Shown here: positions 9,870 to 48,633 of the stretch, piece after piece
Position numbering within the stretch: position 1 is the first letter of the stretch
Layout of the letters: each line of letters begins with the position of its first letter
Program-made: the position numbers and the translations under genes
Notes under the pieces: generated by a model
Database searches by the model: none
What the model saw: only the letters and a program-made list of their open reading frames with translations
Told to the model about the DNA's origin: nothing
DNA from: a virus
Lineage: Duplodnaviria; Caudoviricetes
Reading direction: 5' to 3' (one strand)
Length of the DNA stretch: 64,000 nt
Virus record (IMG/VR): IMGVR_UViG_3300012036_000007
Location: 570-64,569 of that record

Positions 9870-10372
9870 TCACCGCGACAGAAATTGAACGGGCTTTGAT
9901 TCGGTATCTGAGTCGGCCCGGTCGCTTGATCTGCACGAACACCTACATGCTTGATTCACCGTGGGAGAGTGATTTACTCACGGTGAGCAAGCCGATGTAT
10001 TGGCAGGAATTCGAGATCAAGCTGACGGTCGCAGACTACAAGGCAGACTTCCGCAAAGCCTACAAATGGGGGGCAAAGATCAAGAAGCATGTTGCTTACG
10101 CCCGGTCTCAAGAGATCCGAATCAATCGCAGGATATTGTGTCCCAAGCCGCGCCAGTTCTGGTTTGTGTTCCCCGAAGGCATGGTGCCGGTATCGGAAGT
10201 GCCTCAGCATTGCGGGGTCCTGCTGTACGGTAAAAGTGATTGGCGTGAAGAGAATTGCATCAAGTTGGCCAGGAAAGCCAGAGTGCTTAAGAACCCAACG
10301 AAGTTGACCGAAAGGCATATTTTCAACCTTGCTTTGAAGTGTGCGACGAAGACGCATTCGATAAACGGGTAG
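9866..10372 (+). CDS. MmcB-like PD-(D/E)xK nuclease-fold protein
   Basis: WESDLL...EFEIKLTVADYKADFRK...FWFVFP...CGVL. Confidence 0.65.
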   Translation: MITATEIERALIRYLSRPGRLICTNTYMLDSPWESDLLTVSKPMYWQEFEIKLTVADYKADFRKAYKWGAKIKKHVAYARSQEIRINRRILCPKPRQFWFVFPEGMVPVSEVPQHCGVLLYGKSDWREENCIKLARKARVLKNPTKLTERHIFNLALKCATKTHSING

Positions 10373-10456: not shown

Positions 10457-10978
10457 ATGCCCTGGTATCAAGACCGGCGGTTTCACATTGCCATCGGTAT
10501 CACCACCGTATTCCTCCTGTTGCGATTTCTGTTCACCGGCAATCTGTCCGTGGTCGGTGATTACTACTTCGTGCCGGAAGACCCCGAAAAGCCGAAGTCG
10601 ATCGATATTGTCCCGGTCCTTTTCCAGATGGCGATATCGTTCTTTGCGATCGTTGGTTCATCGGTTGTCCTGTGGGTGACCAAGATCTGGGCACGTATTG
10701 CGGACCTCGTGGACGGATATACCGAGACTCGCACAGCGACCAAAGCCGAGCCCGGCAGCAAGGAAGAACTCAAAGATGCGCTGTTCGAGGCCGCTAGTGA
10801 GGGTCGCAGAGATGAGCTAGACCGATTGGTCGATTTCACGCGAAAACCCAAGGCCGTAACGCTACTGACTCGCGAGATCCGAGAGGGGCGCCTTGATGAG
10901 GCGGAGAAGTTGTTTGCCGAGATCAAGCGACTCGAAGGCCAGACCAGTCCTACCAAGCGTAAGGAGGCCGCGAAATGA
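10457..10978 (+). CDS. Two-TM membrane protein
   Basis: Hydrophobic segments FHIAIGITTVFLLLRFLF and VLFQMAISFFAIVGSSVVLWV. Confidence 0.75.
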   Translation: MPWYQDRRFHIAIGITTVFLLLRFLFTGNLSVVGDYYFVPEDPEKPKSIDIVPVLFQMAISFFAIVGSSVVLWVTKIWARIADLVDGYTETRTATKAEPGSKEELKDALFEAASEGRRDELDRLVDFTRKPKAVTLLTREIREGRLDEAEKLFAEIKRLEGQTSPTKRKEAAK

Positions 10979-11466
10979 GCGACGACTACCTATACGAAAG
11001 CGGAAGCAAACAGAGCAGCGGTGGCGGGTTTAGCAATCTGATCCTGATCGTCGTCATCGCAGCGGTTTGCTACTTCGCGTGGAATCGATCCGATTGGGGT
11101 GGCGGTGATAAGCAAGACCGCGACAAGCAAGAGGAACGTGAGGACCAAAAAAAAGACGACGAATCCGATGGGCGTGAGGTCGATGCGGATTGGTCTGGCT
11201 ACAGCTTCTATTCGCTGGTGGAGACCAAACCGCTAGAGCCCAAGACGCTGTCGATGCTCGATGCGTTGAAGGTCTATGCGAAAGCCAATGACATGGCCGG
11301 GGCCGTCCACTACGACGATGACCTGCCCGAAGTCAAAGACAAGATCGATTGGGCCAAGAGCAAGGGAGTCAGTCCGCCGTTCACGATCCTGTACGAGGAC
11401 CTACAGACGCCTAAGAGTGTGATTTCATTCCCGAAAACGATAGCTGATTTGGAGGGCTTGAAATGA
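10975..11466 (+). CDS. Single-TM anchored protein
   Basis: LILIVVIAAVCYFAW followed by a charged linker and a globular domain. Confidence 0.75.
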   Translation: MSDDYLYESGSKQSSGGGFSNLILIVVIAAVCYFAWNRSDWGGGDKQDRDKQEEREDQKKDDESDGREVDADWSGYSFYSLVETKPLEPKTLSMLDALKVYAKANDMAGAVHYDDDLPEVKDKIDWAKSKGVSPPFTILYEDLQTPKSVISFPKTIADLEGLK

Positions 11467-12371
11467 GCGAACTAGCCACGTTTAAGAACCCAGAAGGTTT
11501 TGAATTCTCGACCGGTCTGATAATGCCGGATGACAATCAGAAGGCGTTAATGAACGCGGTTGAAGAGTATCCCGACTCGATGATGCTCGACGATCCCGAC
11601 ATCGAAAAGCTGCTGAAGGACTACGATTACAAACAATCGCGGCGTGATTTAGCACCTTACATGATCAATCAGTCATCGGTGGGAAAGTGCAACACGAGCG
11701 CCGTTGTCGGTGCAGTGGATCAACTTCGACTGCAACAGGGCCTACCCCACATTCCGCTTGCCGATGACCAGCTTTATATGCGGGTCAACGGTGGCCGCGA
11801 TGCTGGCAGTGCACTGATCGAAGGTTATCGCGAGTTGCTTGAGCGAGGCGTAGCACCTCGCTTTGTGCAAGTCGGTGGAATGACCAAGGCATTTCCGCAC
11901 TTCAAGATCCGTCAACGAGATATTCCATCCGACATATGGCAAGCAGCCATGTCTGAGATGAGCCGCTTCCGTGGCTTTGAATGGTATCGAGCACCTCTTG
12001 ATCGGGCCGGTTATGCCAGAGCACTGGCATCTGCCCTAGCCCGTCGTCAGCCGGTCGTCTTCGCATGGCATGTCGGCAACAACGGGATGCGACTGAGAAA
12101 CGGCTATGCACAGATTAGCCGTGGACCGGGCAACCATGCCAACGTCTTCCACTCAGCGAAGTACGTGGGTGGCCAAGACATCGTACACCCAGACGATCGC
12201 AATTCATGGGGACCGTCCAAGGACGTGATCTATGGCCCAACGAACAGCGGTTGGGGCGAAGCCGGCTACGCGTTATTCACGATGGATGATGCATTCGCAT
12301 GTGCCGGAAACCACTACACGTACATCGGGACTTCGGTACGTCCTGATCCCACTAACGACTTCGGTGTGTAA
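11463..12371 (+). CDS. Papain-like (C1) cysteine peptidase
   Basis: NQSSVGKCNTSA (Gln/Cys), GNHAN (His), RNSWG (Asn), WGEAGY. Confidence 0.8.
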   Translation: MSELATFKNPEGFEFSTGLIMPDDNQKALMNAVEEYPDSMMLDDPDIEKLLKDYDYKQSRRDLAPYMINQSSVGKCNTSAVVGAVDQLRLQQGLPHIPLADDQLYMRVNGGRDAGSALIEGYRELLERGVAPRFVQVGGMTKAFPHFKIRQRDIPSDIWQAAMSEMSRFRGFEWYRAPLDRAGYARALASALARRQPVVFAWHVGNNGMRLRNGYAQISRGPGNHANVFHSAKYVGGQDIVHPDDRNSWGPSKDVIYGPTNSGWGEAGYALFTMDDAFACAGNHYTYIGTSVRPDPTNDFGV

Positions 12372-12407
12372 CCCGTAGTCAAATTCGAACCCTGAGGAAA
12401 AGTGATT

Positions 12408-13043
12408 ATGAAACCACAGTTGATCTTATCGGTGTTTGTTGCCCTAATCGGGTACGCCATCATGCCATCGGATAAGTCCGATGAGCCCAAGCAATCGGTG
12501 GCTGAAGTCACCGAGATTGAGAACCCGTTTGAAGCCGTAGACCTACCGATGTTCGTCTCACAGCTGGACGGCTACGGCACTCCCGCGAGCGAGCCGACAA
12601 GCAGTTACGACGTTTGCGATTGTGACTGTGACGCCAACACGGAAGCGATCAAGAGGCTTGCATCGCGGGTGACCAAGTTGGAAGCCGAGCACAGCGACTT
12701 GAAAGCCAAATTCACGCCCGCGATGGCGAGCTACAACAGCACTGGAAGCGGAAGCAGTGGGTCGACCTATTCGAGCTACCAGACTGCGAGTGTCGGCAAT
12801 GGCAGCACCGGTGGGGCGGTCCAGTCCTATGCCCCGGTAGTTAGCCGTGAGATCCGAACGCCCGTTAGAAGTGCTGTCCAGACCATCGTGCAACCGCAAT
12901 ACCAAGTCCAGTACCAGCCGACTGTATCTAGTGGCACGTGCTACATCGATCCAGTCAGTGGCCAGCAAATATGCCCGACGGCTAACACAAGCAATTCGTA
13001 TCAGCCATTGCGGCGCGGACTGCTCGGCTGGCGTAGGCGGTAG
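12408..13043 (+). CDS. Exported protein with coiled coil and low-complexity tail
   Basis: N-terminal hydrophobic helix, EAIKRLASRVTKLEAE coiled coil, C-terminal RRGLLGWRRR. Confidence 0.7.
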   Translation: MKPQLILSVFVALIGYAIMPSDKSDEPKQSVAEVTEIENPFEAVDLPMFVSQLDGYGTPASEPTSSYDVCDCDCDANTEAIKRLASRVTKLEAEHSDLKAKFTPAMASYNSTGSGSSGSTYSSYQTASVGNGSTGGAVQSYAPVVSREIRTPVRSAVQTIVQPQYQVQYQPTVSSGTCYIDPVSGQQICPTANTSNSYQPLRRGLLGWRRR

Positions 13044-13046
13044 GCC

Positions 13047-13289
13047 ATGGCTAATTGGGTCCGTGGAGTATTGATAGCGGTAGCGGTCATTTTGGTCGCT
13101 ACCGTTATCCTCCGATTCCAAAGCTGTTCTATCTTGCCGTTCGATGGACGGTTCCGAGAGTCCATAAGCGATTTTTGGAACGACAGGAAAGAACGCAAAC
13201 AGGACCGCAATGAAGAGCGGTCAGACGACCAGAAAGCGGACGATGAGAACGATCAAGACAACCAACGAAGATTTTGGCGAAGGCGATAG
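13047..13289 (+). CDS. Small membrane-anchored protein
   Basis: GVLIAVAVILVATVIL followed by a charged tail. Confidence 0.65.
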   Translation: MANWVRGVLIAVAVILVATVILRFQSCSILPFDGRFRESISDFWNDRKERKQDRNEERSDDQKADDENDQDNQRRFWRRR

Positions 13290-13292
13290 AAC

Positions 13293-13652
13293 GTGCAGCT
13301 CGATTTGATAGTCATATTCATACATGCCATCGCGGTCACAACGGGCCTCTGGACCATGTATAGACATGGCGAGTTCTTCGAGGACTTCCGCATGTCGGAC
13401 GTACTGCACGGGCGTTGGGACGCGTGGCTCTACATCATCAACTCGTTGTCGACTGCATTATGTGTTGTCGAGATCGCAATCAGGATCGGGTGGTGGGCGA
13501 CCATCAATTGGAAGTTTTCAGCCGACTTTTGGATGTACGCCTTTCTTTCGTTCCATGCCTTCTCCGGAATCCTCGCGACGGTCATCCATGTCGTCACCAA
13601 CAAGTTGCTCAGAAAGGGTGAGTTCTGCGCATTGTGTAAAAGGAATTTTTAG
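13293..13652 (+). CDS. Three-TM membrane protein
   Basis: Three hydrophobic helices; C-terminal CxxC. Confidence 0.65.
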   Translation: MQLDLIVIFIHAIAVTTGLWTMYRHGEFFEDFRMSDVLHGRWDAWLYIINSLSTALCVVEIAIRIGWWATINWKFSADFWMYAFLSFHAFSGILATVIHVVTNKLLRKGEFCALCKRNF

Positions 13653-13662
13653 AGTGCCTGGA

Positions 13663-14007
13663 ATGCAGCGAGATTACACATGGTTTGCCGTCGCAATCAT
13701 TTCATTTATGGCCGGAGTGGTGGCCAACATCGTGTACCCGAATCGACGCGGTGTGCTCGGATTTATCTCTGCTGCTGTGATTGGGATTTTCTGCGGTGGC
13801 GTATCCGGCATGTCGGCACACGCGCTGGAATTGCACAACAGTTGGGTCTACGTGATATCAGCTTCGGTAGCGGTTCTAGGAGATAGGGTGCTCACGTTTG
13901 TGCTTTGTCGGCGTGAAAGGCAAACGACCAACAATTACATCAACGGCGGTCAAAACGCGTTCGGGAACAACGAGATCGAAATGAATCACAAGGAAGAGGA
14001 TCGGTAA
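13663..14007 (+). CDS. Holin-like three-TM protein with C-terminal N/G/Q-rich motif
   Basis: 114 aa, three TM helices, tail TTNNYINGGQNAFGNNEIEMNH; TAATG coupling to the next gene. Confidence 0.6.
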   Translation: MQRDYTWFAVAIISFMAGVVANIVYPNRRGVLGFISAAVIGIFCGGVSGMSAHALELHNSWVYVISASVAVLGDRVLTFVLCRRERQTTNNYINGGQNAFGNNEIEMNHKEEDR

Positions 14008-14552
14008 TGCCTGACTTCAATTTCGGCAACTTCGATATCAGTGGCGGCCAAAGTGCGTTTGGCGACAACAAGCTCGCGATGAATCAGACCATCGGCGCAA
14101 ACCAAGTCGCAAAGCGACTTGATGCGATCAACACGCTTGCAGGCTTGTTCGAGACCGAATTGCAAGTGAGGCAGGCAAGGACAACCACAGTCGACATCGA
14201 GCCCGTGAATGATGCCCCACGAGGTGAACCAGAATCGATTGTTGAGCCAAACCCGTTAGACGAACCGCCTGCTTTGAAAGTCACCGCAGAGTTGATGGCG
14301 GAAGCCAAGGAATTGGAGGCTTCAGAGGCCGAAGGTAACGAGCCCACGGAAGAACAGAAATCGACGTTTGCGGCCAAGGCAAAGTCTGTATTTGGCTCCG
14401 TGGGTGGGTTTCTCAGTAAGAACTTCATTCCGGCTGCGAGGGTAGCTGTTGCAGGGTTATCGGTAGGCACGCCGGGATTTGCGGCATCGGTTATATTGAG
14501 TTGCTTGGAGGCAACGATCAAGATTTCATCGCCCAATGATGAGAGTAAGTAA
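14007..14552 (+). CDS. Hypothetical protein with N-terminal GGQxAFGxN motif and C-terminal hydrophobic hairpin
   Basis: N-terminal FDISGGQSAFGDNKLAMNQ; C-terminal AARVAVAGLSVGTPGFAASVILSCL. Confidence 0.7.
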   Translation: MPDFNFGNFDISGGQSAFGDNKLAMNQTIGANQVAKRLDAINTLAGLFETELQVRQARTTTVDIEPVNDAPRGEPESIVEPNPLDEPPALKVTAELMAEAKELEASEAEGNEPTEEQKSTFAAKAKSVFGSVGGFLSKNFIPAARVAVAGLSVGTPGFAASVILSCLEATIKISSPNDESK

Positions 14553-19179: not shown

Positions 19180-19206
19180 GCAATCATTGTTTCCCAAGTG
19201 CGTCTA
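19180..19206 (+). promoter_or_regulatory. ECF-type promoter (MTase/helicase operon)
   Basis: GCAATC attgtttcccaagt GCGTCTA. Confidence 0.75.
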
Positions 19207-29826: not shown

Positions 29827-32178
29827 ATGGGTCTACCGATCCCGACCGAAATCAAGAAGCAAAGAGCAGCCGAGCAACAGGCATTCGATGAGGCGTTTAA
29901 CCGGACGCTATCCGCTGCCCTTTCCGGTTCGCCTCTTGGACAAGAAAGCTCTAATCCACGAGGTGAAGTCAAATCGTTCAACGGCTGGAACTATCTCGGC
30001 ATCACTGCCATAGCTAGGCAAGCTGCAAGGTCTCACCACTATGTCTATGACGGTAGTCACAATGCGAAGTCCAAGCGTGCCAAAGCCAAGTCGATATACG
30101 GGTCCAAGTGGCGAAATCTTGCCCAAGACGGAGCGGCCGATGTGGTCGACGAATCCCATTGGTGTGCCCGGTTGGTATCCAGACCGGGTGGCCGAATATC
30201 TATTGGTGTTTTCATTTGGGAGTACATCCAGCAGATGCACCTCCACGGGGCTTGCATCATCTGGAATCGTCGATCGATTGACGGTAGCCGGATTGTACAG
30301 CGGTTGATTATCCCGATGTCGATCGCACATCGGATCATGCCCGGTGAAGACAGAGCGGCCCCGAATGGTGGTGTCGAGATCAAGATCGATAACGCGGGGT
30401 TGGGTTGGTACGCACGCAAGGAATTTGGTGCACTGGTCAACAAAGTAATCCCTGTTGAACAGCTATCGGTGGTGAGATACCCACATGCACAATCCAGGGG
30501 TGATGGCCAGAGCCCAAGCGATGCAGCCGGCTGGTGGATCGATCTAGCCACAATGGTCGACATGACTCGCTGGCGGCATATGAAGCGTGGACCAAAACCT
30601 CATGCGTTGCTGACATTCGATGATCCGGACATCGATGAGGAAAAGCTGAATGAGGTCGAGAAGCGGATGAACCGCAAGTTCGAAGGCGACCGGATGGATG
30701 AGAAGTGGGCTGCCATTGGCGGTGGTGCCAAGATCCAAAGCACAACGACTCCGAAGGATATGAAATATGAAGAATCATTCGATCAAATCGGTCGAGTGAT
30801 CCTAGCCACCCACGGCGCAGGAGCTGCCATGGTGGGCCTAACCGACAACATGACCCACGGAAGTATCTCAGCAGCGATCACCCAAGCCAATACCGTTGTG
30901 CAAGCCGACTTGGATTTGCTCGGTGAGGACTTCACGTTGCTCTTTGAGGACTTTGGGCAATCGATGGTCTGCGAGTTCGAAACCCAGCCGATGGATGATC
31001 CGGCTGTTGTTGAGACGCAGTTGACGCAAGACCTAGCAGCGGGTTGTCGGCTCGGTAAGGAATGGCGTGCAATCCGCGGCCTGCCCCCGTTCGGTGACTG
31101 GCGAGATGATGCCCGCGTGACATCCACAGGATTCGTCCGTGATGAGGATCCAGAGAACGCCCCAACCACACAAGCACGTCCTGAGATGGTGCTAGGCCGA
31201 ACCGACTACCCGGCGCCTAAATCGATGTCCAAGTCGGCACCCAAGTCGTCCCCCAAGGCGGAAAGGGTCAAAGCCGACGACAGTCCGATCGTGGCTGTCG
31301 ACCTAGATGGGACGTTGGCCGTCCTGGGTAAGTACGACCCGGATATGATCGGGGAACCAATCAGGTCGTCTATCGAGATCGTACGAAAGCTGGATCGTGC
31401 CGGAGTCCGAATTTGCATCTTTACCTGCCGGGATAATGACGAGCTAGTCAGGCAGTGGTTGGAGGCTAATAGAGTCCCGTTTGATGCCCTGAATGAGAAC
31501 CTTGCGGGCTTCCCCACCTCGGGCAAGATCTATGCGGATGCGTACTTCGACGATCGGGCTGTGAACGTCGATGAGGGGCTTAAAGGAATCGCCCATGCGT
31601 TGGGTAAAGAATGGTCGATCAAGCTAGGTGAGAATCCACACAAGCTAGGTGCGATCATGTTGGAGGTGCCTGCAAAGATGCGGGCAGCTATCAAGGGATT
31701 GCAGGGATTGATTCCAGCTGAATCGGTAGCTCCAGAGGGGCTGGAAGAATGGCCCCATGTGACGGTACTCTACGGAATAACTGGAACACCGATCGAAGAG
31801 GTCGTGGCAGAGGTCCGCAAGATTCGACGCATCGAGGTATCTGTCGGTGACCTAGGATTTTTCAACCGCGATAATGATTCGGTCGCCAAGTTGGCTGTCG
31901 AGTCCGATTACTTGCGGAAGATAAACGGCAAGTTGTCCGATTCATTCCCGGTCGAGACCCACCACCCCGAATACAACCCGCATATCACGTTGGGCTACGT
32001 CCGCAATGACGGGGCGAGCTACAGCAAGGTAATGAATCGATTGCGTGGCGAGGTTTGGGAAGCAACCCATGCGGTGGTCTCAGTCGACGGGCGGAAGATC
32101 CGCGTACCGCTGGTCCACAAGCCGGAAACCGTGATAGATCGGATGATGGGCAAGACAGCCTACAGCAACGGCCACTAG
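29827..32178 (+). CDS. Portal protein fused to HAD-like and 2H phosphoesterase (Acb1/gp57B-like) domains
   Basis: Portal features (AIARQAA, G.SP, PKDMKY, EWRAIRGLPP); VAVDLDGTL...FTCR...KIYADAYFDDRAV; HVTVLYG...PHITLGY. Confidence 0.8.
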   Translation: MGLPIPTEIKKQRAAEQQAFDEAFNRTLSAALSGSPLGQESSNPRGEVKSFNGWNYLGITAIARQAARSHHYVYDGSHNAKSKRAKAKSIYGSKWRNLAQDGAADVVDESHWCARLVSRPGGRISIGVFIWEYIQQMHLHGACIIWNRRSIDGSRIVQRLIIPMSIAHRIMPGEDRAAPNGGVEIKIDNAGLGWYARKEFGALVNKVIPVEQLSVVRYPHAQSRGDGQSPSDAAGWWIDLATMVDMTRWRHMKRGPKPHALLTFDDPDIDEEKLNEVEKRMNRKFEGDRMDEKWAAIGGGAKIQSTTTPKDMKYEESFDQIGRVILATHGAGAAMVGLTDNMTHGSISAAITQANTVVQADLDLLGEDFTLLFEDFGQSMVCEFETQPMDDPAVVETQLTQDLAAGCRLGKEWRAIRGLPPFGDWRDDARVTSTGFVRDEDPENAPTTQARPEMVLGRTDYPAPKSMSKSAPKSSPKAERVKADDSPIVAVDLDGTLAVLGKYDPDMIGEPIRSSIEIVRKLDRAGVRICIFTCRDNDELVRQWLEANRVPFDALNENLAGFPTSGKIYADAYFDDRAVNVDEGLKGIAHALGKEWSIKLGENPHKLGAIMLEVPAKMRAAIKGLQGLIPAESVAPEGLEEWPHVTVLYGITGTPIEEVVAEVRKIRRIEVSVGDLGFFNRDNDSVAKLAVESDYLRKINGKLSDSFPVETHHPEYNPHITLGYVRNDGASYSKVMNRLRGEVWEATHAVVSVDGRKIRVPLVHKPETVIDRMMGKTAYSNGH

Positions 32179-45219: not shown

Positions 45220-48200
45220 ATGCAGGCAGCAGAATTCATTGAGCGCTGGACGAAGTCCGGCGGAGCGGAGCTAGCAAATTCGCAGGCGTTCATAGTGGAG
45301 CTGTGTGACCTATTAGGTGTCGATCATCCAGACCCGACGATTGACTCTGGCGAGGACCAAAACACGTACGTCTTCGAAAAGGCAATAAAATTCAACAATG
45401 GGGACGGAACCTTCAGCGACGGACGAGTCGACCTGTATAAGCAAGGCAGCTTCGTTTTTGAGTCGAAGCAGGGCGTTGAGAAGAAAAACGCATCGGCAGA
45501 TGAACGACTGGCTACGGTTACCCGCAATGCCAGACAACGAAGCGGGACTGGCAAACGAGGCTCCCGTGAATGGGAAAAGTCGATGTTTCGGGCGAGAGGT
45601 CAGGCGAAACGTTACGCGGAAGCCCTCCCGGAGTGGCCACCTTTCTTGGTTGTTGCCGACATCGGCTATTGCTTTGATTTGTACGCGGACTTTAGCGGCA
45701 CAGGGAAGAACTACCAGCCGTTTCCCGACCCACGTAGCTATCGAATCGAAATCACTCGACTCAGTGACGAGAATGTACGTGGTGACCTTCGGTTGCTATT
45801 CACAGGTCCGCACCAACTCGACCCTAGCAAACGATCGGCAGAGGTTACGCGGGAGATTGCGACTCGACTGGCAAAGCTGGCCAAGAGCTTGGAGGCCCAA
45901 CACGACCCGGAGGTTGTAGCGGGTTTTCTGATGCGATGTTTGTTTACGATGTTTGCCGAAGATGTCGACCTAATCAAGCGAGATGGATTCACCGAATTGC
46001 TGTTGAGTCTTCGCACAGAGCCGGACAACTTCGTGCCAATGGTGGAGGGTCTTTGGACTGCGATGGACTGCGGTGAGTTCTCCCAGTTCTTGCGCGAGAA
46101 GGTCCGTCGATTTAACGGCAAGTTCTTCAAGGACAAGACCGCTTTGCCGGTAACGCTAGACCAGTTGCAACTCCTGATCGAGGCAGCGGGCGACTACGAC
46201 TGGAAAGATGTCGAACCAGCGATATTTGGAACCCTGCTCGAAAGAGCGTTGGATCCGGTGGAACGTCACAAGCTAGGAGCACACTACACGCCACGTGCTT
46301 ACGTTGAGCGGTTGGTGATGCCAACGATCATCGAACCATTGCGTGAGCAGTGGGATGCGACCTACGCGGCTGCCACACGACTGGATGACGAAGGCAAGCG
46401 AAAAGATGCGGTCAATCTTTTGCGTGAGTTTCACGGTGAGCTATGTGAAGTCAGGGTCTTGGACCCGGCATGTGGAAGCGGAAACTTTCTTTATGTCGCG
46501 ATGGAGTTGATGAAACGGCTAGAGGGGGAAGTCGTAGCGACTCTGGCAAGTTTCGGGGACAACGTTCTGCCGGGAATCACGATCGACCCGCATCAATTCT
46601 TGGGGATCGAGATCAATCCGAGGGCTGCAGCGCTGGCGGAGTTAGTCTTGTGGATCGGGTACGTACAGTGGCACAAACGAACGCGAACAGAAACGACGCC
46701 TCCCGAGCCAATCCTGCGAGATTACGGCAACATCGAGTGCCGCGACGCAGTGTTGGATTGGGACAGAATCGAGCCGGTTGTCGATGATGACGGCAATCCC
46801 GTCACTCGCTGGGATGGGCGAACAACGAAGCCGCACCCGGTCACGGGCGAAGAGGTGCCCGATGAAGATGCACGCGTTCACGAGCAGCGTTACATCAATT
46901 CAAGAAAAGCCGCGTGGCCCGAAACGGATTACATCGTCGGCAATCCGCCGTTCATTGGCACGTCGCGGATGCGAGACGCACTGGGCGACGGCTACACCAA
47001 GGTGATCCGATCGACGTACAGCGAACTGCCCGAGTCGTGTGATTACGTGATGTACTGGTGGCACACGGCGGCCGAAAGAGTGCGGGCCGAACAAGCCAAC
47101 CGCTTCGGTTTGATCACGACAAACAGTCTTCGTCAAACGTTCAATCGCCGAGTCGTCACACCGCACTTGCAAGCCAAGAATCCGCTTTCGATCGACTTCG
47201 CGATCCCAGATCACCCGTGGGTGGATACGGCGATGTGCGCTGCGGTGCGGATCGCGATGACGGTTGGCGTTCCGGGCGAATCGGCTGGCGTGTTGAACCG
47301 CGTGGCATCGGAAGAAGAACGCGGAGAGGAAGCGGCAGCAATCGAGTTCAAGACTTCGAGCGGGATCATCCAAGCTGACTTGCGAATTGGCGCGGACGTT
47401 GGTTCGGCAATCACTCTTCAAGCGAATGAGGATCTCAGCAATCGAGGCTATTGCCTTTTCGGCCAGGGGTTTGTCCTTGAGGCAAAAATTGCTGCCGACC
47501 TAATTGCAAAAGGATGCGGAGCGACTATCCATCCGTACCTGAACGGGCGAGATGTTACGCAGCAGGCTCGCGGTGTTTTTGTAATCGACGTCTGCGAGTT
47601 GAAGTCAGAAGACGTACGTCAACGTTTCCCTGCCGTCTACCAGCATCTGCTAGATTTCGTCAAACCCGAACGTGATCAAAATAACCGTAAGAGTCGCCGA
47701 GATAATTGGTGGGTGTACGGTGAGCCAAATCCAAAGCTCCGAAAACAGCTTGTCGGGTTGCATCGCTATATCGCAACCGCGGAGACGTCAAAGCATCGCT
47801 TCTTTGTGTTACTTGACGATGCGATCCATCCCGACAATGCATTAATTGCTTTCGCGGTAGATGATGTTTCCATCCATGGCGTGCTTTCGAGCAAAATTCA
47901 CGTTTGCTGGGCACTCGCCGCTGGTGGTCGACTCGGGGTAGGTAATGATCCGCGTTACAACAAAACCCGCTGCTTCGAGACCTTCCCATTCCCCATCACT
48001 GACGCAGCCAGCAAGAAACGCATTGGCGACTTGGCTGAGCAACTCGACGCCCATCGCAAGCGGCAGCAAGATCAACACGCAACGCTGACGATGACCGGCA
48101 TGTACAACGTGCTGGAGAAGTTGCGATCCGGTGAAACACTGACGGCCAAGGATCAAACCATCCACCAGCAAGGACTCGTCTCGGTACTGAAACAGATTCA

Positions 48201-48633
48201 CGACGACCTCGATGCCGCCGTGTTCGACGCCTACGGATGGCCCCACGATATGGAAGACGAAGAGATCTTACAACGCCTAGTCGATTTGAATCACGAACGA
48301 GCCGAAGAGGAAAGTCGTGGAATCGTTCGGTGGTTGCGTCCGGACTTCCAAAACCCCGACGGTGCGACACAAACCGCCTTTTCTGGCCAAGAGAAAAAGA
48401 TTCCCGCCAAGAAAGCCGCTACGAAGGTCAAGAAGCAACCTTGGCCCGCGACCTTGCCAGAGCGAGTGAAAGTCGTTCGCGATTCACTTCTAGAACTGCG
48501 GACTCCAATATCGTCCGACGACATGGCCAAGCGGTTCACTCGGGCGGCGAAGACCAATGTGAACCAGATACTCGACACGCTAGTCGAATTGGGGCAGGCA
48601 CGACTCACCGATGACTCGCAATATGTCCGGTGA
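45220..48633 (+). CDS. MmeI-like type IIL/IIG fused restriction-modification enzyme
   Basis: GRVDLYK..FVFESK nuclease, GAHYTP, LDPACGSGNF, IVGNPPF, CFETFPFP. Confidence 0.92.
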   Translation: MQAAEFIERWTKSGGAELANSQAFIVELCDLLGVDHPDPTIDSGEDQNTYVFEKAIKFNNGDGTFSDGRVDLYKQGSFVFESKQGVEKKNASADERLATVTRNARQRSGTGKRGSREWEKSMFRARGQAKRYAEALPEWPPFLVVADIGYCFDLYADFSGTGKNYQPFPDPRSYRIEITRLSDENVRGDLRLLFTGPHQLDPSKRSAEVTREIATRLAKLAKSLEAQHDPEVVAGFLMRCLFTMFAEDVDLIKRDGFTELLLSLRTEPDNFVPMVEGLWTAMDCGEFSQFLREKVRRFNGKFFKDKTALPVTLDQLQLLIEAAGDYDWKDVEPAIFGTLLERALDPVERHKLGAHYTPRAYVERLVMPTIIEPLREQWDATYAAATRLDDEGKRKDAVNLLREFHGELCEVRVLDPACGSGNFLYVAMELMKRLEGEVVATLASFGDNVLPGITIDPHQFLGIEINPRAAALAELVLWIGYVQWHKRTRTETTPPEPILRDYGNIECRDAVLDWDRIEPVVDDDGNPVTRWDGRTTKPHPVTGEEVPDEDARVHEQRYINSRKAAWPETDYIVGNPPFIGTSRMRDALGDGYTKVIRSTYSELPESCDYVMYWWHTAAERVRAEQANRFGLITTNSLRQTFNRRVVTPHLQAKNPLSIDFAIPDHPWVDTAMCAAVRIAMTVGVPGESAGVLNRVASEEERGEEAAAIEFKTSSGIIQADLRIGADVGSAITLQANEDLSNRGYCLFGQGFVLEAKIAADLIAKGCGATIHPYLNGRDVTQQARGVFVIDVCELKSEDVRQRFPAVYQHLLDFVKPERDQNNRKSRRDNWWVYGEPNPKLRKQLVGLHRYIATAETSKHRFFVLLDDAIHPDNALIAFAVDDVSIHGVLSSKIHVCWALAAGGRLGVGNDPRYNKTRCFETFPFPITDAASKKRIGDLAEQLDAHRKRQQDQHATLTMTGMYNVLEKLRSGETLTAKDQTIHQQGLVSVLKQIHDDLDAAVFDAYGWPHDMEDEEILQRLVDLNHERAEEESRGIVRWLRPDFQNPDGATQTAFSGQEKKIPAKKAATKVKKQPWPATLPERVKVVRDSLLELRTPISSDDMAKRFTRAAKTNVNQILDTLVELGQARLTDDSQYVR

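What the first reader, a model, noticed from the sequence alone, without database searches (positions are those of the whole stretch)
13930..14090. RHIM/amyloid-like motif shared between a holin-like C-terminus and the next protein's N-terminus
Seen: the 3-TM protein 13663-14007 ends with INGGQNAFGNNEIEMN and the translationally coupled ORF 14007-14552 begins with ISGGQSAFGDNKLAMN (10/16 identical). The DNA copies differ at synonymous sites (ggt/ggc, ttc/ttt, ggg/ggc), suggesting protein-level conservation, and the proteins are otherwise unrelated. Known: fungal and bacterial amyloid signalling pairs (HET-s/NWD2, BASS motifs) share a short G/N/Q-rich motif at the C-terminus of one protein and the N-terminus of the adjacent gene's product; the RIPK3 RHIM core VQVGDNNYLTM resembles AFGDNKLAM. 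Inference: a phage-encoded amyloid co-assembly switch that triggers or times membrane permeabilisation (a holin plus a partner carrying a hydrophobic C-terminal hairpin), or a decoy of host amyloid immunity. I know of no described example in a phage lysis cassette.
Basis: partly seen in the sequence, partly recalled or inferred. Interest (0 to 1): 0.85.

Follow-up and report, generated by a model that had tools for sequence, protein, structure and literature searches.

The report
Matched terminal tags couple phage membrane proteins
A holin-like membrane protein of an uncultured phage ends with the same short glycine/asparagine-rich tag that begins the next protein, and two related phages have the same layout with different but matching tags, which suggests the tags make the two proteins assemble, possibly in the way amyloid signalling pairs do.

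Summary
Protein A (13663-14007, three membrane segments, weakly holin-III-like) ends with INGGQNAFGNNEIEMN. The overlapping gene B (14007-14552) begins with ISGGQSAFGDNKLAMN (10/16 identical; 0 of 20,000 composition-preserving shuffles reach the score). The window holds only these two copies.

Synonymous sites between the copies are saturated (dS about 1.5, dN 0.19), so the match is kept at protein level.

A and B have no detectable homologues apart from one 98-100% identical strain. The conserved neighbouring papain-fold protease led to 85 related loci. Two further lineages (L079; L124/L127) carry the same layout at the same position: a membrane-anchored protein with a C-terminal tag and a small protein with a matching N-terminal tag, an acidic middle and a hydrophobic C-terminus. 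The three tag types differ between phages but match within each pair, so the tags co-vary.

This fits the gene-pair layout and G/N/Q-rich composition of bacterial amyloid signalling (BASS; Bab/Agp). There is no NLR-type sensor, the RHIM signature is not met, and fibril formation and a role in lysis are untested.

I class it as a new variant of a known kind. This scan noted a similar layout beside the spanins of an unrelated phage (e1-5754895).

The parts
13663..14007 (+). Gene A: 114-aa protein with three hydrophobic segments (holin-superfamily-III-like) and a hydrophilic C-terminal tail
   Evidence: ORF list. Pfam PF16083 LydA holin E = 2.6e-4, 21.5 bits, below the 28.4 cut-off. PHROG 785 holin E = 3.3e-4. 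ESM Atlas neighbours are holin-III clusters at score 0.84, with structure TM 0.64-0.71 across the seven rows listed. Hydropathy peaks.
13681..13905 (+). Membrane part of A (residues about 7-81, three predicted transmembrane helices)
   Evidence: Kyte-Doolittle peaks centred at residues 12-19, 37-48 and 63-74. N-out/C-in topology is my inference from the RRER cluster after the third helix.
13924..13989 (+). Tag copy 1: C-terminal tail of A, TTNNYINGGQNAFGNNEIEMNH (residues 88-109), 5 residues before the stop
13990..14000 (+). Shine-Dalgarno-like AAGGAAGAGGA before B; A's stop and B's start overlap (TAATG at 14005-14009)
   Evidence: Read directly. Translational coupling is inferred.
14007..14552 (+). 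Gene B: 181-aa orphan with an N-terminal tag, an acidic/proline-rich middle and a moderately hydrophobic C-terminal region
   Evidence: No Pfam, PHROG, PADLOC or NCBIfam hit. The only real relative among 1.84 billion representatives is a 98% identical strain variant. The AF2 single-sequence model is poor (pLDDT 51); it is helical after residue 18 and has no helix or strand before it.
14019..14087 (+). Tag copy 2: N-terminus of B, NFGNFDISGGQSAFGDNKLAMNQ (residues 5-27)
14409..14519 (+). Hydrophobic, small-residue-rich C-terminal region of B (residues about 135-171), a possible membrane hairpin
   Evidence: Two overlapping hydrophobic windows, 135-153 and 145-171, at a lenient threshold. The same feature is present in the B-type proteins of L079 and L124.
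10457..13652 (+). Upstream conserved membrane-protein and protease module in which the pair is embedded: multi-TM protein, 1-TM protein, papain-fold protease 11463-12371, TM+coiled-coil/S-rich protein 12402-13043, signal+Cys charged protein 13047-13289, multi-TM protein 13293-13652
   Evidence: Gene maps of the window and seven related loci. Protease: 117 homologues, AF2 pLDDT 94.8, Foldseek xylellain/cathepsins E about 1e-9. A promoter-like repeat lies at 10354 and the next at 19180.

Best explanation
A and B form a two-protein module coupled through a matched, co-evolving terminal tag of about 20 residues, rich in G, N and Q. The tag sits on the C-terminal tail of a membrane-embedded, oligomerising protein. 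In this phage that protein is a 3-TM holin-like protein; in two related phages it is a 1-TM coiled-coil protein. The same tag sits at the N-terminus of a small partner whose C-terminus is a hydrophobic hairpin-like region. I infer that both tags face the cytoplasm. The most likely mechanism is homotypic beta-strand co-assembly of the two tags, as in amyloid signalling pairs (Bell/NLR BASS pairs, Bab/Agp, HET-S/NWD2). When the membrane partner clusters, its tails would nucleate and recruit or convert the partner, or the reverse. This would give a sharp, concentration-dependent switch that controls a membrane lesion late in infection, as an accessory regulator or executor of lysis. Shown: the tags exist, are selected, are private to each pair, and co-vary. 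Inferred: direct contact, cross-beta nature, topology, and the link to lysis.
For: (1) Each of three pairs is significant against composition-preserving shuffles: 0, 0 and 1 of 20,000 shuffles reach the observed score.
(2) In a scan of 49,250 C-end/N-start comparisons within 2.5 kb, in 85 related loci plus the window, the only scores of 50 or more are these three pairs, one whole-gene paralogue pair (L078) and one repeat in L101 that I read as off-frame.
(3) Co-variation: every A-type tail scores best with its own partner (59, 52, 52 against 16-31 for foreign B heads), and every B head scores better with its own A tail than with a foreign A tail.
(4) The match is kept at protein level. dS is 1.55 and 1.40, and not computable in L079, which I read as saturation; dN is 0.19-0.23. 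Of 29 identical residues, 12 use different codons.
(5) Each tag type is private. The L124-type pattern occurs twice in each of 2 contigs and nowhere else in IMG/VR. The window-type strict pattern has 0 hits in genome and metagenome contigs.
(6) Composition (G+N+Q 37-53%, K+P+L 0-10%) and length fit the BASS description read. The layout (small membrane protein with a C-terminal tag, adjacent partner with an N-terminal tag) equals Bab/Agp.
(7) Context: same putative operon as a conserved membrane-protein/protease module. A is weakly holin-III-like. In L124 three small multi-TM ORFs lie in tight overlap between the two tagged genes, so the tagged proteins belong to a membrane module whose parts are shuffled.
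(8) AF2 gives no helix or strand at B's tag (residues 1-17) and pLDDT 45-49 over the first 30 residues, as expected for a tag that folds only on assembly (weak).
Against: No experiment or predictor here shows cross-beta structure.
No Pfam amyloid-motif family matches, and the RHIM core signature is absent.
There is no NLR/STAND or other recognisable sensor domain. B is small and has no known domain.
Window B is not demonstrably homologous to the B-type proteins of L079/L124 (hhalign E = 0.5, only the tag columns aligned). Window A has no relative in the 85 loci. So the three cases share architecture, not proven common descent.
Only three lineages are known, so the co-variation rests on a small sample.
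The pair is present in 2 of 37 distinct related lineages plus the window, so it cannot be the essential holin system.
A's holin assignment is below Pfam's cut-off.
Weak PHROG hits (E 0.015-0.057) liken the 1-TM A-type proteins to Rz-like spanins. If that held, their tails would be periplasmic and could not meet a cytoplasmic partner.
Confidence: 0.42

Rival explanations
1. Same direct contact, but a plain stoichiometric heterodimer. B would be an antiholin-like (or pro-holin) regulator that docks on the cytoplasmic tail of A by ordinary beta-strand pairing, with no templating, fibrils or prion-like behaviour.
For: A holin followed by a translationally coupled regulator gene is the classic arrangement (P1 lydA-lydB, recalled, not tested here). 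A is LydA-family-like, weakly. Co-variation and private tags are equally expected for any specific pairwise interface. No amyloid family or predictor result supports cross-beta.
Against: A pairwise interface does not need the two sides to have the same sequence. Identity of the two tags (10/16, 9/15, 10/14) points to homotypic stacking, in which like residues align. The G/N/Q-rich, K/P/L-poor composition is that of amyloid signalling motifs.
Confidence: 0.28
2. The pair is not a lysis device. It would be a phage-carried abortive-infection or superinfection-exclusion module of the Bab/Agp kind, a 'moron' in a variable slot. B would sense a rival phage or stress and trigger the membrane protein through the shared tag.
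For: The only bacterial system shown experimentally to use a matched tag, Bab/Agp, is an antiphage system located in prophage defence hotspots. The pair occupies a variable slot between the conserved membrane module and the fibre-like gene, and is present in only 3 of 38 lineages. The 1-TM A-type proteins (125-127 aa: N-terminal hydrophobic helix, helical region, C-terminal tag) have the layout of Bab (109 aa).
Against: PADLOC gives no hit for A or B even at E <= 1. B has no sensor or enzyme domain. Window A looks like a holin rather than a Bell domain. The genes sit in what looks like a late operon, not under a separate promoter. No sequence match of A-type proteins to any solved structure, so none to Bab if its crystal structure is in that copy, which I did not check.
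Confidence: 0.15
3. The two tags do not touch each other. Both would be recognised by a third, co-evolving phage factor or by a host factor (protease, chaperone, insertase), for instance as a shared degron or targeting signal.
For: Short terminal tags often serve as degrons or targeting signals. Nothing here shows direct A-B contact.
Against: A host factor would hold the tag constant across related phages, yet the tag differs completely between lineages while matching within each. No third copy or obvious reader exists in the genome.
Confidence: 0.07
4. A neutral remnant of a local duplication across the gene junction, or chance similarity of low-complexity ends.
For: The copies lie 98 bases apart. 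Low-complexity G/N/Q sequence aligns easily. BLASTP with composition adjustment gives only E = 0.069 for the L079 pair.
Against: Shuffles keep composition and still give 0-1 of 20,000. Synonymous sites are saturated while residues are kept. The same layout recurs with different tags in two other lineages.
Confidence: 0.03
5. A decoy that mimics a host amyloid-immunity motif and blocks or poisons host BASS-type signalling.
For: In principle a phage could copy a host tag. The host (lead: Planctomycetota, from a Roseiconus lacunae homologue of the protease) may not be in the genome set.
Against: 0 matches of the strict pattern in one genome each of 185,579 species and in the metagenome contigs. 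The 43 looser matches are internal to unrelated ORFs, none at a protein end in a G/N/Q context. A decoy needs one copy, not a matched pair on two phage proteins.
Confidence: 0.03

Closest known systems
Bab/Agp abortive-infection pair of E. coli ECOR25 with the BASS11 motif (Ibarlosa et al., bioRxiv 10.1101/2024.11.07.622273; abstract, sections 4 and 10, and passages read)
   Same: A small protein (Bab, 109 aa; A, 114 aa; A-type in L079/L124, 125-127 aa) has an N-terminal hydrophobic/membrane part and a C-terminal tag of about 20 residues. The adjacent gene's product carries the same tag at its N-terminus. Both are mobile-element borne.
   Different: Agp is a 1094-aa TPR-GreA/B-C-PIN sensor, whereas B is 138-181 aa with no known domain and a hydrophobic C-terminus. 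Window A is a 3-TM holin-like protein, not a soluble Babybell domain. The setting is a late membrane/protease operon of a phage, not a defence island. Amyloid formation is shown for BASS11 and untested here. The BASS11 alignment is in a figure I could not see, so no direct tag comparison was made.
Bell-domain / NLR gene pairs with BASS1-10 motifs of filamentous Actinobacteria, Cyanobacteria and Archaea (Dyrka et al., bioRxiv 10.1101/2020.01.06.895854; passages and section 9 read)
   Same: A C-end/N-start matched motif on adjacent genes. The motif families were defined from matching in effector/NLR gene pairs. Motifs are enriched in Q, N, G, V, I and depleted in K, P, L, and are about 25 residues long.
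   Different: No NLR (NB-ARC/NACHT) partner and no Bell domain shown. The setting is a virus, not a multicellular bacterium. The tags here are about 15-22 residues. Membership in BASS1-10 could not be tested: their HMMs are not in any library here, and the motif lists are in figures and supplements, which are closed.
Fungal HET-S/NWD2 and animal RHIM (RIPK1/RIPK3) amyloid signalling
   Same: The principle of a short shared motif that transmits a signal by templated cross-beta assembly to a membrane-targeting executor.
   Different: The G-phi-Q-phi-G core that RHIM, PP and BASS3 share is absent from all six tags. No Pfam hit to any amyloid-motif family.
Holin/antiholin pairs (P1 LydA/LydB, lambda S105/S107, T4 T/RI/RIII); recalled knowledge, apart from a search listing for T4 RI
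   Same: A small multi-TM holin-family-like protein is followed by a tightly coupled small gene in a phage late operon. A partner that acts on the holin is the known way to time lysis.
   Different: I know of no holin/antiholin pair that shares an identical terminal peptide. B has no relative among known antiholins: no PHROG or Pfam hit. A is below the Pfam threshold for LydA.
   Same: Same layout in a phage lysis neighbourhood, with the pairing conserved in relatives.
   Different: Unrelated genome. It is an AI note that I did not check; no sequence relation is known.

Membership tests
Amyloid signalling gene pairs (BASS / Bab-Agp type) | The same short motif at the C-terminus of one protein and the N-terminus of the product of an adjacent gene | tested here: met
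   Window: 10/16 identical, overlapping genes. L079: 9/15, genes overlap by 14 bases. L124/L127: 10/14, genes 670 bases apart with three small TM ORFs between them.
Amyloid signalling gene pairs (BASS / Bab-Agp type) | Motifs co-vary: partners match each other better than non-partners across related loci | tested here: met
   3 of 3 A tails score best with their own B head (59, 52, 52 against 16-31). 3 of 3 B heads prefer their own A tail over a foreign A tail. Only three lineages.
Amyloid signalling gene pairs (BASS / Bab-Agp type) | About 20-25 residues, enriched in G/N/Q (and V/I), depleted in K/P/L, with conserved G/N/Q positions interleaved with hydrophobic residues | tested here: met
   G+N+Q 11-16 of 30 and K+P+L 0-3 of 30 in all six termini. 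Criterion taken.
Amyloid signalling gene pairs (BASS / Bab-Agp type) | The N-tagged partner is an oligomerising sensor (NLR/STAND, or TPR-type as in Agp) | tested here: not met
   B, and the B-type proteins of L079/L124, have no Pfam, PHROG, PADLOC or NCBIfam domain. They are 138-181 aa.
Amyloid signalling gene pairs (BASS / Bab-Agp type) | The C-tagged partner has a Bell/HeLo-type helical membrane-targeting domain | tested here: inconclusive
   Window A has 3 predicted TM helices and is holin-like. L079/L124 A-type proteins have one N-terminal hydrophobic helix plus a helical region. No sequence hit to any solved structure.
Amyloid signalling gene pairs (BASS / Bab-Agp type) | The motif forms cross-beta fibrils, behaves as a prion-forming domain, and cross-seeds its partner | not testable with these tools
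   Needs ThT/EM/ssNMR or foci assays. ArchCandy, ASMscan and the BASS HMMs are not available here.
RHIM / PP / BASS3 | Central G-phi-Q-phi-G ([IV]-Q-[IV]-G) core | tested here: not met
   Signature quoted from Dyrka et al.. The window tags read GGQ[NS]AFG, L124 reads NI[QS]G..SQN.IG, and L079 reads G.GA[AV]NQ[AV]G. No Pfam match at E <= 0.1.
Holin superfamily III (Pfam PF16083 LydA-like) | Profile match above the curated threshold | tested here: inconclusive
   21.5 bits against a cut-off of 28.4, E = 2.6e-4, covering profile positions 3-77 of 78. PHROG 785 holin E = 3.3e-4. Atlas neighbours are holin-III at 0.84, which is below the 0.9 'lead only' mark.
Holin superfamily III (Pfam PF16083 LydA-like) | Small protein, three TM helices, charged cytoplasmic C-terminus, encoded next to lysis genes | tested here: inconclusive
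   Size, three hydrophobic peaks and an RRER...KEEDR tail are met. No recognised endolysin: 0 cell-wall hydrolase families among the 25 shown of 37 Pfam families from 47 other ORFs. The neighbour is a papain-fold protease of unknown substrate.
Holin-antiholin pair | The partner is a relative of a known antiholin (LydB, RI, RIII, S107-type dual start) | tested here: not met
   B has no PHROG or Pfam hit. A has a single start Met and no dual-start motif. LydB itself was not compared directly.

The most novel reading that the evidence does not exclude
Phages themselves use amyloid-type templating. A self-matching cross-beta tag on a holin-like protein's cytoplasmic tail and on a small hairpin protein would form a nucleation-dependent, all-or-none timer or trigger for membrane permeabilisation. 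The tag sequence acts as a private 'address' that diversifies between phages, so that co-infecting relatives cannot trigger each other's lysis.
Probability: 0.2. Interest if true: 0.85.

Novelty: new variant of a known kind. Interest (0 to 1): 0.64.

Why it matters
Matched amyloid-type tags are so far described for cellular immune systems: fungal NLRs, Bell/NLR pairs, and Bab/Agp against phages. If a virus uses the same device inside its own late membrane module, the mechanism is not restricted to host defence. It would also offer a physical basis (nucleated assembly) for the sharp timing of holin triggering, a long-discussed feature of phage lysis.

The three lineages give a ready test set: three mutually different tags on interchangeable membrane partners. 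Specificity can be tested by tag swaps, and fibril formation by 20-residue peptides.

Three literature searches found no paper that links holins or antiholins with amyloid signalling.

Tried and rejected
Homologue searches for A and B led nowhere.
- The word-index search found only 98-100% identical strain variants. In the variant, B has A24T at a non-shared tag position and A's tag is unchanged.
- Full phmmer of B against 1.84 billion representatives gave 17 hits at E <= 1e-3. One is the strain variant. I read the other 16, proteins of 498-1416 aa hit mostly through B's region about 53-107, as low-complexity matches. So no fused A-B form of B was seen.
- No hit in GenBank phages for B, A, the protease or L079's B-type protein.
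- No close relative in IMG/VR for A, the protease as a single sequence, or DnaB.

Tag pattern scans:
- GGQxAFGxN in IMG/VR gave 32 loci with one match each, all internal or out of context. One of them, an N-terminal GGQSAFGPNKL in L008, has no second copy and I take it as chance.
- The IxGGQxAFGxN scan of the genome contigs gave 43 loci. Seven lie in a conserved enzyme-like context (SKT...GGQRAFGEN.VQE) that I recall as the YggS family (recalled, not tested); the rest are chance-like.

A profile of the B-type proteins (A6) and their conserved C-terminal block found only the two known contigs in IMG/VR.

hhalign of window B against the B-type profile gave E = 0.5, so I do not claim homology.

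ESM Atlas neighbours of B (Cyanobacteriota/Chloroflexota hypotheticals, TCAD2; scores 0.88-0.89) are below the lead threshold and Pfam did not confirm them.

Complex prediction on full-length A + B returned 'no answer' (score 0.00; controls not run). It is neither for nor against binding.

AF2 of B alone was poor (pLDDT 51).

I could not compare with BASS1-11 motif models or lists, which are in figures and supplements.
Full report
What the window is. The genome held for this window is one 64,569-base contig, and the window covers bases 570-64569. Nearly all long ORFs are on the + strand. It encodes a portal, an HK97-type capsid protein, a DnaB helicase and sigma factors, so it is a phage. It has no close relative in GenBank phages.

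The observation. Gene A (13663-14007) encodes 114 residues with three hydrophobic peaks and a hydrophilic tail. Gene B (14007-14552) starts on the last base of A's stop codon, behind a strong Shine-Dalgarno-like sequence.
- A ends ...NNYINGGQNAFGNNEIEMNHKEEDR and B begins MPDFNFGNFDISGGQSAFGDNKLAMNQ.
- BLASTP gives 10/17 identities, 15/17 positives, E = 1e-5, and nothing else shared.
- No shuffle of 20,000 that keeps the composition of both termini reaches the observed score.
- The core pattern occurs only twice in the six-frame translation of the genome. No third place scores above 32 against 59 for the partner.
- At DNA level 38 of 51 bases agree, and 3 of 10 conserved residues use different codons. 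dN is 0.19 and dS is 1.55.
The copies are therefore old, and the peptide, not the DNA, is conserved.

What A and B are. A matches the LydA holin family (PF16083) over almost the whole profile, but below threshold (21.5 against 28.4 bits). It matches a PHROG holin family at E = 3.3e-4. Its ESM Atlas neighbours by features and by structure are holin-superfamily-III clusters, at scores that count only as leads. B matches nothing in Pfam, PHROGs, PADLOC or NCBIfam. A full HMMER pass over 1.84 billion representative proteins found one real relative, a 98% identical strain variant; I read the other 16 hits as low-complexity matches of B's acidic/proline-rich middle in long proteins. Hence B has no detectable fused or longer form. 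The strain variant changes one non-shared position of B's tag (A24T) and leaves A's tag unchanged. AF2 models B poorly (pLDDT 51): there is no helix or strand before residue 18, the first 30 residues have pLDDT 45-49, and helices follow, including two in the hydrophobic C-terminal region.

Finding relatives through the neighbour. The 302-aa protein two genes upstream of A (11463-12371) has 117 homologues at 26-100% identity, most of them at 40-60%. They include one named Roseiconus lacunae, which is a host lead to Planctomycetota. Distant members carry Pfam Peptidase_C1. With their alignment AF2 gives pLDDT 94.8, and Foldseek finds xylellain and (pro)cathepsins at E about 1e-9. The alignment fetched 43 metagenome and 42 viral loci. 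The loci share a module: a multi-TM protein, a 1-TM protein, the protease, a TM + coiled-coil + serine-rich protein, a signal + Cys + highly charged protein, then variable small membrane proteins, then fibre-like genes.

The same layout in two other lineages. I compared the last 40 residues of every frame with the first 40 residues of every start within 2.5 kb downstream: 49,250 comparisons in the 85 loci plus the window. The scores of 50 or more are the window pair (59), L079 (52), L124/L127 (52), a whole-gene paralogue pair (L078) and a repeat in L101 that I read as off-frame.
- L079: a 127-aa protein (one N-terminal hydrophobic helix, then a helical region) ends ...IQNSTGGGAANQAGNNHHEQR. 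The overlapping 155-aa gene begins MSSGNSFQFGSINQTASGSGAVNQVGNN.
- L124 and its near-duplicate L127: a 125-aa protein of the same kind ends ...FNIQGTSQNSIGDHNAQENRS. A 138-aa protein 670 bases downstream begins (M)GSFNLNISGNSQNVIGDNN. Three small ORFs with 1-3 predicted TM segments, each overlapping the next by four bases, lie between them.
- The two B-type proteins are homologous (E = 1e-17); the two A-type proteins are weakly so (E = 2e-3).
- Like window B, the B-type proteins have an acidic middle and two moderately hydrophobic C-terminal stretches. A profile comparison does not show homology with window B beyond the tag (E = 0.5).
- Shuffles give 0 and 1 of 20,000 for these two pairs. Their copies also differ at synonymous sites: 6 of 9 and 3 of 10 conserved residues use different codons. 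dS is 1.40 in L124 and was not computable in L079, which I read as saturation.
- Of the 85 loci, 60 have at least 3 kb downstream of the protease, and these fall into 37 distinct groups. Two groups carry a pair. With the window that is 3 of 38 lineages.

Co-variation and privacy of the tags. The three tag types differ:
- window: I-x-G-G-Q-x-A-F-G-x-N-x-h-x-M-N
- L124: N-I-x-G-x-S-Q-N-x-I-G-D-x-N
- L079: Q-x-x-x-G-x-G-A-h-N-Q-h-G-N-N
Within each phage the two copies match. Each A tail scores 52-59 with its own partner and 16-31 with foreign B heads, and each B head prefers its own A tail over a foreign one. The L124-type pattern occurs exactly twice in each of the two contigs and nowhere else in IMG/VR. 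The strict window-type pattern has no match in one genome each of 185,579 species or in the metagenome contigs. Looser forms give only chance-like or enzyme-internal matches. A host-conserved reader or a host motif being mimicked would not give this picture. Direct mutual recognition of the two tags would.

How it most likely works. In all three lineages the C-tagged partner is membrane-anchored and likely to self-associate, either as a holin-like 3-TM protein or as a 1-TM coiled-coil protein. The N-tagged partner lacks a signal peptide. From the positive charges after the last (or only) TM helix I infer that the tails are cytoplasmic, so both tags can meet there. This is inference, and weak PHROG hits to Rz-like spanins (E 0.015-0.057) leave a periplasmic orientation open for the 1-TM proteins.

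That the two sides carry the same sequence, rich in G, N and Q, poor in K, P and L, with hydrophobic residues interleaved between G/N turns, is what Dyrka et al. describe for bacterial amyloid signalling motifs. It is also what Ibarlosa et al. showed for Bab/Agp, where a 109-aa membrane-targeting protein and its neighbour share a 20-residue tag that forms fibrils and transmits activation.

My best reading (0.42) is therefore homotypic beta-strand co-assembly that couples clustering of the membrane partner to recruitment or conversion of the small hairpin protein, controlling a membrane lesion late in infection. The main rival (0.28) is the same contact as a simple holin-regulator heterodimer without templating. 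Next (0.15) is a phage-carried abortive-infection or exclusion module of the Bab/Agp kind, favoured by the variable slot and the patchy distribution. A shared reader, a neutral duplication and a host decoy are unlikely, for the reasons above.

Context. Copies lie at 10354 and 19180, bracketing the membrane module, the pair and the fibre-like gene. No terminator-like site lies between on the + strand before 16270. No recognised cell-wall hydrolase appears among the 25 listed of 37 Pfam families from 47 other ORFs. The 'lysis cassette' label therefore rests on the membrane proteins, the holin-like A and the spanin-like architecture of two neighbours, not on an endolysin.

Comparison with what is known. 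The layout, co-variation and composition criteria of amyloid signalling pairs are met. The sensor criterion (NLR/TPR partner) is not met. The Bell-domain criterion is open, and fibril formation cannot be tested here. The RHIM/PP/BASS3 core G-phi-Q-phi-G is absent, and no Pfam amyloid-motif family matches. I could not compare with BASS1-11 models, because the motif alignments are in figures and supplements that I could not see. Three searches found no paper linking holins or antiholins to amyloid signalling, and the ASM-detection paper does not mention phages or viruses. Earlier notes of this scan report matched tags in several defence operons and once beside the spanins of an unrelated giant phage. 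These are unchecked AI notes, but they suggest the layout recurs.

Verdict. This is a real, selected, co-evolving matched-tag pair in a phage membrane module. I class it as a new variant of the amyloid-signalling kind of gene pair. The amyloid mechanism and the role in lysis are both unproven. Interest 0.64.

Noticed in passing
window 11463-12371: A papain-fold (C1) cysteine protease with invariant Q70, C76, H225 and W249. It has 117 homologues and always sits among small membrane proteins in these phages. AF2 pLDDT is 94.8 and Foldseek hits xylellain and cathepsins. No classical endolysin family was seen among the Pfam families listed for 47 other ORFs, so it may be an unconventional lysis enzyme.
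   Followed up: partly
window 12402-13043 and 13047-13289: A TM + coiled-coil + serine-rich protein and a following signal + Cys + highly charged protein both end in an arginine/tryptophan cluster (...GLLGWRRR and ...RRFWRRR). Similar endings recur in related loci. This may be an i-spanin/o-spanin-like pair with a second kind of shared end motif.
   Followed up: no
L124 7786-8446 (also L127): Three small ORFs (80, 74 and 66 aa; 1-3 predicted TM segments) overlap head to tail and are inserted between the two tagged genes. In the window a 3-TM domain is instead fused to the tag, which suggests domain shuffling within one module.
   Followed up: partly
window 4914, 10354, 19180, 29403, 32194, 33022, 37824, 39604, 51053, 62096: GCANTC-N14-GCGTCNA occurs 10 times, all on the + strand, against 0.11 expected by shuffling. 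This looks like a phage-specific promoter set, plausibly read by the phage's own ECF-type sigma factors (452-1066 carries sigma-70 regions 2 and 4).
   Followed up: partly
window 29827-32178: The portal protein carries a C-terminal 2',5' RNA ligase/2H phosphoesterase domain (PF13563, E = 3.6e-9). It also has a sub-threshold Acb1 anti-CBASS match (24.4 against 27 bits).
   Followed up: no
window 45220-48633: A complete MmeI-type restriction-modification enzyme (N-terminal, helicase-spacer, methyltransferase and TRD domains) is encoded by the phage.
   Followed up: no
window, among the 47 ORFs of alignment A2: Pfam reports OrfB_IS605 and Cas12f1-like TNB domains (a TnpB-like gene), a DNA polymerase III beta clamp, a DnaJ domain and a staphylococcal-nuclease homologue in this phage. 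I did not work out which ORF carries which.
   Followed up: no
L008 6086-6505: A 139-aa phage protein upstream of a lysis-like cluster carries GGQSAFGPNKL near its N-terminus, 10 of 11 residues as in B. There is no second copy in the locus, so it is probably chance.
   Followed up: partly
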